Shown piece after piece: positions 4,627-6,470 of a DNA stretch of 32,000 nucleotides. Under the pieces are notes generated by a model. The model saw only the letters and a list, made by a program, of their open reading frames with translations. It searched no databases and was not told the DNA's origin. The stretch is from contig NZ_AP012549.1 of NCBI RefSeq assembly GCF_000829235.1, positions 810,001-842,000 of the forward strand, in the 5' to 3' direction. Each line of letters opens with the position of its first letter. Within the stretch, counting starts at the first letter, position 1. Source of the stretch: a cyanobacterium endosymbiont of Epithemia turgida isolate EtSB Lake Yunoko. GTDB taxonomy: Bacteria; Cyanobacteriota; Cyanobacteriia; Cyanobacteriales; Microcystaceae. Position numbers and translations under genes: made by a program.

Positions 4627-5417
4627 TTGAGACTTGCAGTTGACGGTAAAGGCGGCATTAACAAATCTGCTATGAGCTGTAATATTTCTACAGCATTGGA
4701 CAAACGAAGTAAGAAAGTTTTACAAATTGATTATGATCCTAAGCACGACAGCACCTTTACTCTAACCTGGTTCCTTAATCACTATCATTATACCTTGTAA
4801 GAAAAAGACTTTCACTACGAAAATGTCCTAAAGATGTCACCGGCAAAAGCTATGTGGTAGTCAACTGCGTGGAAGCTGGTGGAAAATTAGGTTGTGGAGG
4901 TTACGTAGTTGGAGAAACTGTTTAATTACTCAAAGAATTGAATGCATTTGATGAGCATGACGTCATCATATTTGATGTGTTGGGCGACGTAGTTTCTGGC
5001 GGAGTTGCTGCAGAGTTGAATTATACGGATTATTGTTTAATTATGACCGATAATAGTTTTGATGCCTTATTTGCTGCTAACCGTATTGGTGCTTCGGTTC
5101 GGGAAAAAGTAAAAACTTATCCCTTACGTTTGACAAGATTAATTGGAAACCGTACTTTTAAGCGTAATTTTATTGATAAATATATTGAAGTGTTTCCTAT
5201 GCCTGTGTTAAAAGTTATACCCTTAATTGAAGATATTCGGTTTTTCCGTGTTCAGCTCAAGCTCAAAACCTTGTTTGAAATGTCAGACAAAAATACCTCT
5301 CTTGAGTACATTTGTAGTTACTATCTCAATATTGCTGACCAATTGTTAGCAATGCCAAAAGGAGTGGTTCCATATAGTGCTCAGGATTAGGAATTGTTTA
5401 CCCTAAGCCTCTCTTAA
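4627..5417 (+). pseudogene. chlL: chlL pseudogene (light-independent protochlorophyllide reductase, Fe protein / ATP-binding subunit)
   Basis: Translation from 4627 reads [46 protein letters not shown], close to ChlL [21 protein letters not shown]...[10 protein letters not shown]. Lesions: no ATG, a P-loop G->N change, in-frame TAA at 4798-4800, a frame change before [12 protein letters not shown], loss of about 5 codons (PPAGA), TAA at 4923-4925, the cluster-ligand motif VVCGGFA changed to VVSGGVA, and a premature TAG at 5388-5390 followed by the still-readable ELFTLSLS. The 150-aa ORF at 4938-5390 is only the C-terminal fragment. Confidence 0.9.
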
Positions 5418-5697
5418 GAATAACAAATAAAAGTTAGATTAAATGATAGTTATAGTTTAGGCTTAAAGTATCGTTTTTAAAACAATTTAAAATAAGGTTT
5501 GACAACTTTACTACACTACGAACTAATGTTTATGAAAATCTTTATAACGTAATCAATATAAGTTTTGAAGTGAGATTTTAATCCTAACCCCAAAAAAGCA
5601 AAGTAGAAAATAAAACTATCTCCATAATTATCATCAGTAACTGAAGAACTGGAAGAAATTAAACAACAACTTCCTTTAACTAAGAAAATTATCAATT

Positions 5698-6470
5698 ATG
5701 ACTACGACACACAAACCTACTGTATTACAATTTTACTTTAAAACTGGAAACTATAATGCTTTTTGTTCCATTAATTACATAGTTTGGTTATCCTCAATGA
5801 GGATAGTTTCTTTTTAGTTATTGGAACTAAAATCTGTGGTTACTTTCTACAAAATACCATAGTAGTAATGATTTTTGCAGAACCTCGTTAGGCAATGGCA
5901 GAGTTAGAATAGGAATATATTTCCGCTCAATTAAAAGATTGTGTTTATAAATTAAACGTGATTGCAACTTTAATGTTACCGTTTGGATTGGCAGTTGTAC
6001 AACTTAAATGATCAAAATAGACTTGAAAGAGTTAGCCCCCAAATTTTTTAAAAAAATCAATATTACGATTGTAACTACGTGCGCAAATGGCTAAGATTGT
6101 ATTTTCCCCTCACGGGGAAGATACAATCTTAGCAGCAATGGTACATAAGTGTCCCAAAAAGAAATAAAAAGAATGTAACGCAAGATAATTTAAAATATAT
6201 AGACCATCTTCCTTTAGTTTTATTTGGTTCTCTTCCTGATCCATTTGTTACTAATTTAACCCTAGAGTTGAAGAAACAAGAGGTCATAATTGCGGGTTGG
6301 TTATCCCCTAAACATTGCACATAGTTGTCGCTGATTAATGAGGTATATTATGTTAGTGGGGTTAGTGGGGTTAGTGGGGTTAGTGGGGTTAGTCCATCTC
6401 TATCACGGACTGCAACAACTTTGATGTGCCGCCGTAAGTATAAATTAATTGGTGCGTCCTTCCCTATTAG
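5698..6470 (+). pseudogene. chlN: chlN pseudogene (light-independent protochlorophyllide reductase subunit N), 5' half recognisable
   Basis: Peptides read across shifting frames match ChlN as I remember it. They are [147 protein letters not shown] and [24 protein letters not shown]. There are at least 5 in-frame stops and several frameshifts. The expected 3' half (to about 7100) is eroded beyond recognition. Confidence 0.9.
6352..6393 (+). repeat. 9-bp tandem repeat GTTAGTGGG, 4 full copies plus a partial GTTAGT
   Basis: Read directly: gttagtggg at 6352, 6361, 6370 and 6379, then gttagt. It is in frame with the chlN relic (VSG repeated) at the position where ChlN has ..GVNPF.. Confidence 0.95.

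What the first reader, a model, noticed from the sequence alone, without database searches (positions are those of the whole stretch)
4627..6470. Entire chlL-chlN operon is pseudogenised but still readable
Both genes of the dark-operative protochlorophyllide oxidoreductase operon are present in the ancestral order and orientation. Each carries many independent lesions. chlL has lost its start, has a G->N change in the P-loop, a C->S change at a [4Fe-4S] ligand position (VVCGGFA to VVSGGVA), three stops, at least one frameshift and a 5-codon deletion. chlN has at least 5 stops, several frameshifts and a 3' half eroded to A/T. Amino-acid similarity is still high in the surviving blocks, so inactivation is evolutionarily recent relative to the blank flanking spacers. 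That gives a relative clock for the loss of pigment synthesis. In a cyanobacterium this is a strong functional statement: DPOR is dispensable. Either the organism relies only on light-dependent POR, or, more likely given the other decay, it no longer makes chlorophyll.
Basis: partly seen in the sequence, partly recalled or inferred. Interest (0 to 1): 0.75.

Follow-up and report, generated by a model that had tools for sequence, protein, structure and literature searches.

The report
Dead chlL-chlN genes, already published

Summary
Window 4621-6470 carries a chlL pseudogene and the 5' 273 codons of a chlN pseudogene, in the ancestral order. They lie in the same gene neighbourhood (mraY-tlyA ... 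spoIID-gyrA) as intact chlL-chlN in sister endosymbiont genomes.

The window is the spheroid-body genome of Epithemia turgida (EtSB). Three of its proteins are identical to BAP17388, BAP17390 and BAP17391. Nakayama & Inagaki 2017 (Table S3) already list EtSB chlL as a pseudogene with stops and frameshifts, and chlN with stops, truncation and frameshifts. They also list chlB, chlG and six other Chl-a genes as dead or missing.

The lesions are not assembly errors. An independent read set reproduces window 1-19318 with no mismatch, and the E. adnata endosymbiont shares most lesions.

- The "5-codon deletion" is 9 bp.
- The chlN 3' half looks truncated or replaced, not eroded in place. Similarity stops abruptly at 6468-6470, and GC drops from 0.345 to 0.16.
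- Inactivation is not recent.
- Adjacent unconstrained segments differ four-fold in divergence, so a local clock is weak.

Verdict: ordinary and already known.

The parts
4605..4629 (+). chlL translation-start region. The Shine-Dalgarno-like AAGGAG of intact orthologues is AAGAAG here (4605-4610). Their TTG start is TTA (4621-4623). An in-frame TTG remains at 4627-4629.
   Evidence: Upstream sequences of EtSB, EcSB and L006 compared; alignment; sequence read.
4621..5420 (+). chlL pseudogene (DPOR L-protein, NifH/BchL family). It has 3 in-frame stops, 3 frameshifting deletions (-2, -1, -4), a 9-bp in-frame deletion, a 6-bp in-frame duplication, P-loop G to N, cluster-ligand Cys to Ser, and a lost C-terminal tail.
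   Evidence: PDB 2YNM_A E=1.9e-53; TIGR01281 on ORF 4938-5390; alignment and lesion list; tblastn 71-79% amino-acid identity to EcSB ChlL.
5421..5698 (+). chlL-chlN intergenic spacer. It is alignable to the spacer of the intact operons.
   Evidence: Alignment.
5699..6470 (+). chlN pseudogene, codons 1-273 only. The ATG is kept. It has 6 stops at reference codons 66, 73, 92, 111, 140 and 233, four frameshifting indels (-4, -19, +1, -50) and a +27 bp repeat expansion. The three cluster-ligand Cys codons are still present.
   Evidence: PDB 2XDQ_A E=1.1e-74 over chain residues 3-275; alignment and lesion list.
6352..6393 (+). Perfect 9-bp tandem repeat GTTAGTGGG x4.7 inside the chlN pseudogene. 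Intact orthologues and EaSB have about 1.7 copies; EtSB alone gained 27 bp.
   Evidence: TRF; alignments. The independent Logan contigs break here.
6471..7280 (.). A/T block (GC 0.16-0.21) in the place of the chlN 3' half and downstream spacer. It has no detectable similarity to chlN codons 274-462 or to the spacers of EcSB or L006. It is shared with EaSB.
   Evidence: blastn gap; tblastn E>7; global-alignment z=2.0 and 0.6 against a positive control of z=16; low-complexity matches only; Et-Ea divergence 7.2%.
2019..4620 (.). Older geneless spacer upstream of chlL (GC 0.257). It is homologous to an equally geneless spacer in EcSB and R. gibba SB.
   Evidence: blastn 68-75% to L003 and 83-88% to L026; no Pfam hit in six frames.

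Best explanation
Window 4621-6470 holds the non-functional remains of the chlL-chlN operon. This operon encodes two of the three subunits of dark-operative protochlorophyllide oxidoreductase (DPOR). The genome is that of the spheroid body (diazoplast) of the diatom Epithemia turgida, a cyanobacterium-derived obligate endosymbiont that fixes nitrogen and no longer photosynthesises.

At some point selection on the chlorophyll branch was lost in the common ancestor of the E. turgida and E. adnata endosymbionts. From then on the operon drifted under an AT-biased mutation spectrum. It accumulated stops, small deletions, slippage duplications and substitutions at catalytic residues. A discrete event removed or replaced chlN beyond codon 273.

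Shown here: homology, synteny, each lesion, sharing of lesions with E. adnata SB, relaxed dN/dS, and reproducibility in an independent read set.

Inferred: the order of events, and that loss of selection rather than a first chance lesion started the decay.
For: - Identity of the genome: TlyA, SpoIID and GyrA of the window are identical to BAP17388.1, BAP17390.1 and BAP17391.1 of the E. turgida endosymbiont.
- Homology.
- Synteny with intact genes: chlL (289 aa) and chlN (462 aa) sit between tlyA and spoIID in CP123991.1, the E. clementina endosymbiont. The same holds in a more distant endosymbiont contig, L006.
- Lesion catalogue.
- Shared with E. adnata SB (CP076462): the start change, P-loop G to N, chlL stops 61 and 260, chlN stops 73, 92, 111 and 140, and the A/T block, plus the Cys to Ser change and most indels (via contig L008, which is near-identical to the E. 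adnata endosymbiont). EtSB-only: chlL stop 107, chlN stops 66 and 233, and the +27 bp expansion.
- Selection: intact branches have omega 0.13-0.16, equal to the neighbours spoIID and gyrA. The pooled EtSB-branch dN/dS is 0.66-0.84. After the split, pN/pS is 0.92 for chlL and 0.55 for chlN on small counts.
- AT bias on the EtSB branch: GC-to-AT changes run at 0.16-0.22 per GC site, against 0.05 per AT site for AT-to-GC.
- Not an artefact: window 1-6381 and 6364-19318 are 100% identical to two Logan contigs assembled from run SRR29904087.
- Literature: PMC5638926 Table S3 lists EtSB chlL, chlN, chlB, chlG, chlH, chlI, chlM, chlE and bciB as pseudogenes, and chlD as not found.
Against: - I could not scan the rest of the EtSB genome myself. 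The single genome-contig scan used pseudogene-specific peptide patterns and returned only distant free-living cyanobacteria. Absence of an intact second copy therefore rests on two things: the published table, and the absence of any EtSB-labelled or SRR29904087-derived intact ChlL among the best protein hits.
- I assume SRR29904087 is independent of the 2014 assembly from its accession range; I did not check this.
- dN/dS comes from a three-taxon Nei-Gojobori estimate under strong AT bias, so the timing fraction is rough.
Confidence: 0.95

Rival explanations
1. The stops and frameshifts are sequencing or assembly errors, and the operon is intact in the organism.
For: None found. A perfect 9-bp repeat at 6352-6393 is the kind of place where assemblies can miscount copies, and Logan contigs break there.
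Against: Window 1-6381 and 6364-19318 are 100% identical, with no gaps, to contigs assembled from another run. Most lesions, including 2 chlL stops, 4 chlN stops and most indels, are present in the separately sequenced E. adnata SB genome and in a JGI metagenome contig. Catalytic-residue substitutions and elevated dN cannot be produced by indel errors.
Confidence: 0.01
2. This locus is a redundant decayed duplicate, and an intact chlL-chlN pair elsewhere in the genome still provides DPOR.
For: I could not search the whole EtSB genome (one search returned no endosymbiont loci).
Against: The locus is the syntenic orthologue of the only chlL-chlN pair seen in sister genomes. No second copy exists in the 32-kb window. 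No intact ChlL attributable to EtSB appears among the best 120 of 7415 hits, whereas those of EcSB, RgSB and L006 do. The published gene table gives chlL, chlN and chlB as pseudogenes with no intact locus ID.
Confidence: 0.02
3. The chlN 3' half is still in place at 6471-6990, but has been eroded to A/T beyond recognition by locally accelerated mutation and slippage.
For: The unalignable core (6471-7283, 812 bp) is about as long as the matching stretch of L006 (3183-4003, 820 bp). A 15/16 match sits exactly at the position of the chlN stop codon in both L003 and L006. The block diverges fastest between EtSB and EaSB (7.2%). Global alignment to EcSB gives z=2.0 (6 of 200 shuffles).
Against: Both halves became neutral together, yet the 5' half keeps 78% identity and GC 0.345, while the block has GC 0.16 and no significant similarity (z=0.6 against L006; tblastn E>7). 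The rate excess over the chlN 5' pseudogene is only 1.3-fold. The boundary is abrupt, within a few bases of 6468. The published table scores EtSB chlN as truncated. The short anchor is not significant once all possible anchors are counted (my own estimate).
Confidence: 0.2
4. A surviving fragment keeps a function, for example the 150-aa ORF at 4938-5390 that gene callers pick up as a NifH-fold protein.
For: The ORF is called in Logan and JGI assemblies, with a 173-aa version in E. adnata SB. The chlL pseudogene diverges more slowly between EtSB and EaSB than its surroundings (1.9%).
Against: The fragment lacks the P-loop and carries the cluster Cys to Ser change. pN/pS between EtSB and EaSB is 0.92. 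Its upstream boundary differs between the two species (TAA against GAA at codon 107). It is not annotated as a CDS in NCBI.
Confidence: 0.03

Closest known systems
EtSB chlL and chlN pseudogenes as published (Nakayama et al. 2014 genome AP012549; Nakayama & Inagaki 2017, Sci Rep 7:13075, Table S3)
   Same: It is the same locus in the same genome. The table gives chlL as a pseudogene with stops and frameshifts, and chlN as a pseudogene with stops, truncation and frameshifts. This matches my catalogue.
   Different: Nothing essential. This report adds base-level coordinates, the sharing pattern with E. adnata SB, a timing estimate, and the nature of the chlN truncation.
Intact chlL-chlN of sister spheroid bodies: E. 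clementina SB CP123991.1; R. gibberula SB RGRSB_0504/0505; contig L006
   Same: Same gene order and the same flanks (tlyA ... spoIID-gyrA). DNA identity is 74-78% to EcSB and L006; amino-acid identity to their and RgSB ChlL is about 77-81%.
   Different: Those copies are uninterrupted (289 and 462 aa) and keep the P-loop and both ChlL cluster cysteines. They evolve at omega 0.13-0.15, like housekeeping neighbours. Published work says RgSB, EcSB and EpSB keep ChlLNB (PMC12903740).
chlL-chlN loss in the Rhopalodia gibba spheroid body (CP067995.1)
   Same: Same operon, same flanks, same outcome: no DPOR.
   Different: A different route. Two large deletions removed chlL, chlN codons 1 to about 176, and codons 300-462. 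They left a clean fragment of about 400 bp that is 85% identical at protein level. The loss is therefore independent of the one in EtSB/EaSB.
chlL/chlN/chlB loss or pseudogenisation in plastid genomes (angiosperms, some gymnosperms and algae). This is from my own knowledge and was not tested here.
   Same: DPOR genes decay or disappear when they are dispensable.
   Different: In those lineages chlorophyll is still made through light-dependent POR. Here the whole Chl-a branch and the photosystems are gone.

Membership tests
ChlL/BchL (DPOR L-protein; NifH family, TIGR01281) | Sequence homology over the whole protein | tested here: met
   2YNM_A E=1.9e-53 over chain residues 37-297; 71-79% amino-acid identity to EcSB ChlL over codons 1-265.
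ChlL/BchL (DPOR L-protein; NifH family, TIGR01281) | Uninterrupted reading frame with a usable start | tested here: not met
   Three stops, three frameshifting deletions, start TTG to TTA, and a degraded SD motif. The longest fragment scores 170 bits against the 345-bit cut-off of TIGR01281.
ChlL/BchL (DPOR L-protein; NifH family, TIGR01281) | Walker A P-loop GKGGIGKS | tested here: not met
   GKGGINKS, with AAC at 4660-4662; shared with EaSB.
ChlL/BchL (DPOR L-protein; NifH family, TIGR01281) | Two Cys per subunit that ligate the inter-subunit [4Fe-4S] cluster (their role is from my own knowledge of NifH/BchL structures) | tested here: not met
   The first Cys (GCGGY) is kept. The second (VVCGGF) is Ser, TCT at 4995-4997.
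ChlN/BchN (DPOR N subunit; PF00148 Oxidored_nitro) | Sequence homology over the whole protein | tested here: not met
   Only residues 3-275 of 2XDQ_A match (E=1.1e-74). Nothing matches codons 274-462 (tblastn E>7).
ChlN/BchN (DPOR N subunit; PF00148 Oxidored_nitro) | Uninterrupted reading frame | tested here: not met
   Six stops and four frameshifting indels in the surviving 273 codons.
ChlN/BchN (DPOR N subunit; PF00148 Oxidored_nitro) | Three cluster-ligand Cys (equivalents of T. elongatus C22, C47 and C107; numbering from my own knowledge) | tested here: met
   The codons for C23, C48 and C108 (EcSB numbering) are still TGT in EtSB; the neighbouring C27 is Tyr. This is irrelevant to function given the stops.
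Unitary pseudogene produced by reductive genome evolution in an obligate endosymbiont | Intact orthologue at the syntenic position in relatives, and several independent disabling lesions | tested here: met
Unitary pseudogene produced by reductive genome evolution in an obligate endosymbiont | Relaxed selection on the lineage (omega approaching 1) and AT-biased decay | tested here: met
   EtSB-branch dN/dS is 0.66-0.84, against 0.145 on intact branches. GC-to-AT exceeds AT-to-GC 3- to 5-fold per site.
Unitary pseudogene produced by reductive genome evolution in an obligate endosymbiont | No functional paralogue elsewhere in the genome | tested here: inconclusive
   None in the window. None among the top protein hits. 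The published table says pseudogene only. I could not run a whole-genome scan.

The most novel reading that the evidence does not exclude
The same operon evolves under purifying selection as strong as on gyrA and spoIID (omega 0.13-0.16) in sister endosymbionts that are also non-photosynthetic. It has been lost twice independently, by different routes: point decay plus truncation in the E. turgida / E. adnata lineage, and two large deletions in R. gibba. This would mean that DPOR and the Chl branch have a non-photosynthetic role in some diazoplasts, for example the tetrapyrrole-regulation role proposed in PMC12903740. EtSB/EaSB and R. gibba would then be natural knock-outs of that role. The pseudogene would date when the role was abandoned, about 0.4-0.9 of the way back along the EtSB branch.
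Probability: 0.25. Interest if true: 0.45.

Novelty: already known. Interest (0 to 1): 0.12.

Why it matters
As a stand-alone finding it matters little. The pseudogenes and their meaning (no chlorophyll, no photosynthesis in the E. turgida spheroid body) were published in 2014 and 2017.

The locus is still a convenient, well-anchored example for studying how genes decay in a young endosymbiont. Three fates of one operon can be compared across closely related genomes:
- intact and constrained;
- riddled with small lesions;
- removed by large deletions.

It also shows that divergence varies four-fold between adjacent unconstrained segments, which cautions against single-locus pseudogene clocks.

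Tried and rejected
- The genome-contig scan with the stitched ChlL pseudo-protein. The tool built its patterns from pseudogene-specific peptides ([16 protein letters not shown] and others), so it found only 14 distant free-living cyanobacteria. Those loci were too distant to serve as outgroups and were not used.
- Looking up RgSB ChlL (P0003) for its DNA: not on record. RgSB could therefore be compared only at protein level.
- A first alignment test for residual chlN 3' homology with free end gaps gave trivial scores. I replaced it with global and local tests that include positive and negative controls.
- A six-frame Pfam scan of the upstream spacer 2019-4626: no family at E<=0.05, so the older loss there remains unidentified.
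- A literature search for CP123991: no paper. I identified it as the E. clementina endosymbiont through a cluster member's name and contig length. The 2014 PNAS genome paper is not held, so the EtSB statements are cited through PMC5638926.
- I considered programmed frameshifting or read-through and rejected it. There are nine stops and seven frameshifting indels within the aligned coding parts of the two genes, catalytic residues are lost, and half of chlN is missing.
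Full report
**What is in the window.** The window is AT-rich. Islands of about 40% GC carry intact genes, and troughs of 20-28% GC carry none. The intact genes around the finding are:
- mraY (82-1215, +)
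- tlyA (1212-2018, -)
- spoIID (8170-9318, -)
- gyrA (10447-12963, +)
- glgX (14851-16977, -)
- a sufE-like gene, a nifS-like cysteine desulfurase, and pstSCA

Between tlyA and spoIID there is no long ORF except a 150-aa one at 4938-5390.

**Whose genome it is.** The TlyA, SpoIID and GyrA proteins encoded in the window are identical, residue for residue, to BAP17388.1, BAP17390.1 and BAP17391.1. These belong to the 'cyanobacterium endosymbiont of Epithemia turgida' (chromosome 2,794,318 bp). The window is therefore part of the published EtSB genome. EtSB is the spheroid body (diazoplast) of a rhopalodiacean diatom: an obligate, nitrogen-fixing, non-photosynthetic descendant of a Crocosphaera/Rippkaea-like cyanobacterium.

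**Checking the observation.**
- A stitched translation of 4627-5404 matches the L-protein of dark-operative protochlorophyllide oxidoreductase (PDB 2YNM_A) at E=1.9e-53. Nitrogenase iron proteins score far behind.
- A stitched translation of 5699-6470 matches ChlN (2XDQ_A) at E=1.1e-74, but only over residues 3-275 of the 460-residue chain.
- In the endosymbiont of E. clementina (CP123991.1; identified), an intact chlL (289 aa) and chlN (462 aa) lie in exactly the same context: mraY, tlyA, spacer, chlL, chlN, spoIID, gyrA, glgX.
- The same holds in a more distant endosymbiont contig, L006.
- DNA identity of the window to CP123991.1 is 87-88% over the flanking intact genes and 78% over 4434-6468. 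It is undetectable over 6468-7600.

**Lesion catalogue against the intact orthologues.**

In chlL:
- The TTG that starts the intact orthologues is TTA (4621-4623).
- The AAGGAG ten bases upstream of that start codon is AAGAAG (4605-4610). An in-frame TTG remains at 4627.
- The Walker A loop reads GKGGINKS (4660-4662).
- The second cluster cysteine is serine (4995-4997).
- There are deletions of 2, 1 and 4 bp (after 4780, 4789 and 4826; net -1 frame).
- There is an in-frame 9-bp deletion (after 4882) and an in-frame 6-bp duplication (5254-5259).
- Stops lie at 4798-4800, 4923-4925 and 5388-5390.
- A 26-bp deletion follows 5404, and the C-terminal tail is lost.

In chlN:
- The ATG at 5699 survives.
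- Frameshifting indels are -4 (after 5797), -19 (after 5935), +1 (6106) and -50 (after 6161).
- A 27-bp expansion of a 9-bp repeat lies at 6352-6378 (TRF: GTTAGTGGG x4.7, 100% matches).
- Stops lie at reference codons 66, 73, 92, 111, 140 and 233.

One exception is the '5-codon deletion', which is three codons.

**Are the lesions real?** Window 1-6381 and 6364-19318 are 100% identical, with no gap, to two contigs assembled by Logan from run SRR29904087. The separately sequenced E. adnata endosymbiont (CP076462.1) shares the following:
- the start-codon change and the P-loop change;
- two of the three chlL stops and four of the six chlN stops;
- the A/T block downstream;
- the Cys to Ser change and most indels. 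This was read on a near-identical JGI metagenome contig, L008.

Only chlL stop 107, chlN stops 66 and 233 and the repeat expansion are private to EtSB. E. adnata SB has its own private stops and a 56-bp deletion. Assembly error is excluded, and inactivation predates the split of these two endosymbionts.

**The chlN 3' half.**
- Similarity drops from about 78% to nothing within a few bases of 6468.
- tblastn with ChlN residues 272-462 finds nothing in the window (best E=7).
- Global and local alignments of 6469-6990 to the intact 3' halves give z=2.0 and 0.6 against shuffles. A spacer that is neutral in both lineages gives z=16-22.
- GC is 0.16 in 6471-7000 but 0.345 in the 5' half, which has fallen only about 3 points from the intact gene.
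- Both halves lost constraint together, so uniform decay cannot explain the difference.
- The published table also scores EtSB chlN as truncated.

I keep in-place hyper-erosion as a minority rival (0.2) for three reasons. The block has nearly the same length as the sequence it replaces. A 15/16 match sits at the expected position of the chlN stop codon. And the block is the fastest-diverging segment between EtSB and EaSB.

**Timing.** I used a three-taxon Nei-Gojobori analysis of EtSB, EcSB and L006.
- The intact copies have omega 0.13 (chlL) and 0.15 (chlN). The neighbours spoIID and gyrA have 0.11-0.16.
- On the EtSB branch, pooled chlL+chlN dN is 0.105. dS is 0.126 for the genes themselves and 0.158 for the neighbours.
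- With the classical pseudogene-age formula, the fraction of the branch spent without constraint is 0.60 (bootstrap 0.42-0.86). Using the genes' own dS it is 0.82 (0.47 to above 1).
- The EtSB+EaSB lineage is itself a long branch. The GyrA amino-acid distance from EtSB is 0.10-0.11 to the Rhopalodia and E. clementina endosymbionts, but only 0.018 to EaSB.

Inactivation is therefore younger than the geneless spacer upstream, which is already geneless in EcSB and R. gibba SB. It is not recent on the scale of spheroid-body diversification.

A 'relative clock' from this locus is also unreliable. Between EtSB and EaSB, divergence is 1.6% in the upstream spacer (measured on contig L008, which is near-identical to EaSB), 1.9% in the chlL pseudogene, 5.5% in the chlN pseudogene and 7.2% in the A/T block. 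The chlL-versus-block contrast gives Fisher p=5e-7.

**Mechanism.**
- Shown: the operon is dead, and its decay is AT-biased. GC-to-AT runs at 0.16-0.22 per GC site, against 0.05 per AT site for the reverse.
- Shown: the decay proceeds by point substitutions, small deletions and slippage events (the 6-bp duplication and the 9-bp repeat expansion).
- Inferred: selection on the chlorophyll branch ceased in the EtSB/EaSB ancestor, after which lesions accumulated.
- From the literature: in EtSB every Chl-a pathway gene is a pseudogene or absent (chlB, chlG, chlH, chlI, chlM, chlE and bciB are pseudogenes; chlD was not found). Most photosystem I and II genes are absent from EtSB. Spheroid bodies in general show no chlorophyll autofluorescence (PMC5638926).

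**Comparison with what is known.** This exact pair of pseudogenes is listed in Table S3 of Nakayama & Inagaki 2017. Later comparative papers state that RgSB, EcSB and EpSB keep ChlLNB, that EtSB and EaSB do not, and that R. gibba SB is intermediate (PMC12903740). A 2026 preprint describes the chlorophyll pathway as absent from the spheroid-body core genome.

My own look at R. gibba SB shows an independent route to the same end. Two large deletions leave only chlN codons 177-299, at 85% amino-acid identity with no stop.

**Verdict.** It is wrong on recency, on the clock and on the chlN 3' half. The thing itself is already known and ordinary for this genome.

Noticed in passing
window 6471-7283 (to about 7600): An 812-bp block of 16-21% GC with degenerate 9-14-bp A/T repeats. 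It cannot be aligned to the chlN 3' half or to the chlN-spoIID spacers of EcSB or L006, yet it is conserved (93%) in E. adnata SB. Its origin is unexplained: filler after a deletion, slippage expansion, or hyper-eroded chlN.
   Followed up: partly
window 6352-6393: A perfect 9-bp tandem repeat (GTTAGTGGG x4.7) lies inside the chlN pseudogene. The intact orthologues and EaSB have about 1.7 copies, encoding VSGVS. EtSB alone gained three units. Both independent Logan contigs end inside it.
   Followed up: yes
L003 10001-12496 (E. clementina SB) and L006 1268-3753: Intact chlL and chlN in these non-photosynthetic endosymbionts evolve at omega 0.13-0.15, no faster than gyrA and spoIID next door. 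That argues for a retained function of DPOR without photosynthesis. Nakayama & Inagaki reported elevated dN for Chl-a genes in RgSB, so lineages may differ.
   Followed up: partly
L026 (R. gibba SB, CP067995.1), reverse-complement coordinates 8987-9454: chlL and most of chlN were removed by two large deletions (about 2.0 kb and 1.2 kb relative to EcSB). A clean chlN fragment of about 400 bp (codons 177-299) remains. This loss is independent of the one in EtSB/EaSB.
   Followed up: yes
P0003 (RgSB ChlL, 272 aa) against L003 10001 and L006 1268: The intact endosymbiont chlL genes start with TTG, not ATG. The RgSB protein is annotated from an internal Met (MSCNIS...) and so lacks the P-loop. This is probably an annotation artefact of the non-ATG start rather than a lesion. 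I could not check it because the RgSB DNA was not retrievable.
   Followed up: partly
window 4178-8249 against L008/L024: Presumably neutral neighbouring segments differ four-fold in EtSB-EaSB divergence (1.6-1.9% upstream and in the chlL pseudogene; 5.5-7.2% in the chlN pseudogene and the A/T block). This points to strong local variation in mutation rate.
   Followed up: partly
window 8879-9186 and 9437-9744: A segment of about 310 bp inside the 5' part of spoIID has a diverged direct copy (about 75%) just upstream, overlapping a 112-aa ORF (9599-9937, -) with no family hit. The cross-match appears in every endosymbiont locus compared, so the partial duplication is old.
   Followed up: no
window 2019-4620: A geneless spacer (GC 0.257) aligns at 68-75% to an equally geneless spacer in EcSB and at 83-88% in R. 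gibba SB. No Pfam family is detectable in six frames. It is an older, shared loss of unknown content.
   Followed up: partly
window 13000-14600, 21200-22700, 26200-28200: Further low-GC troughs (21-29% GC) without long ORFs, presumably other gene graveyards. The 426-aa ORF at 24885-26165 (-) has no NCBIfam or Pfam hit. ORF 22703-24103 (-) is a DUF2079 membrane protein.
   Followed up: no
gyrA and spoIID, window against L003/L006: The EtSB branch is about twice as long as the EcSB branch at synonymous sites (0.158 against 0.086). GyrA amino-acid distances show EtSB+EaSB as a long branch, so this lineage has evolved faster overall.
   Followed up: partly
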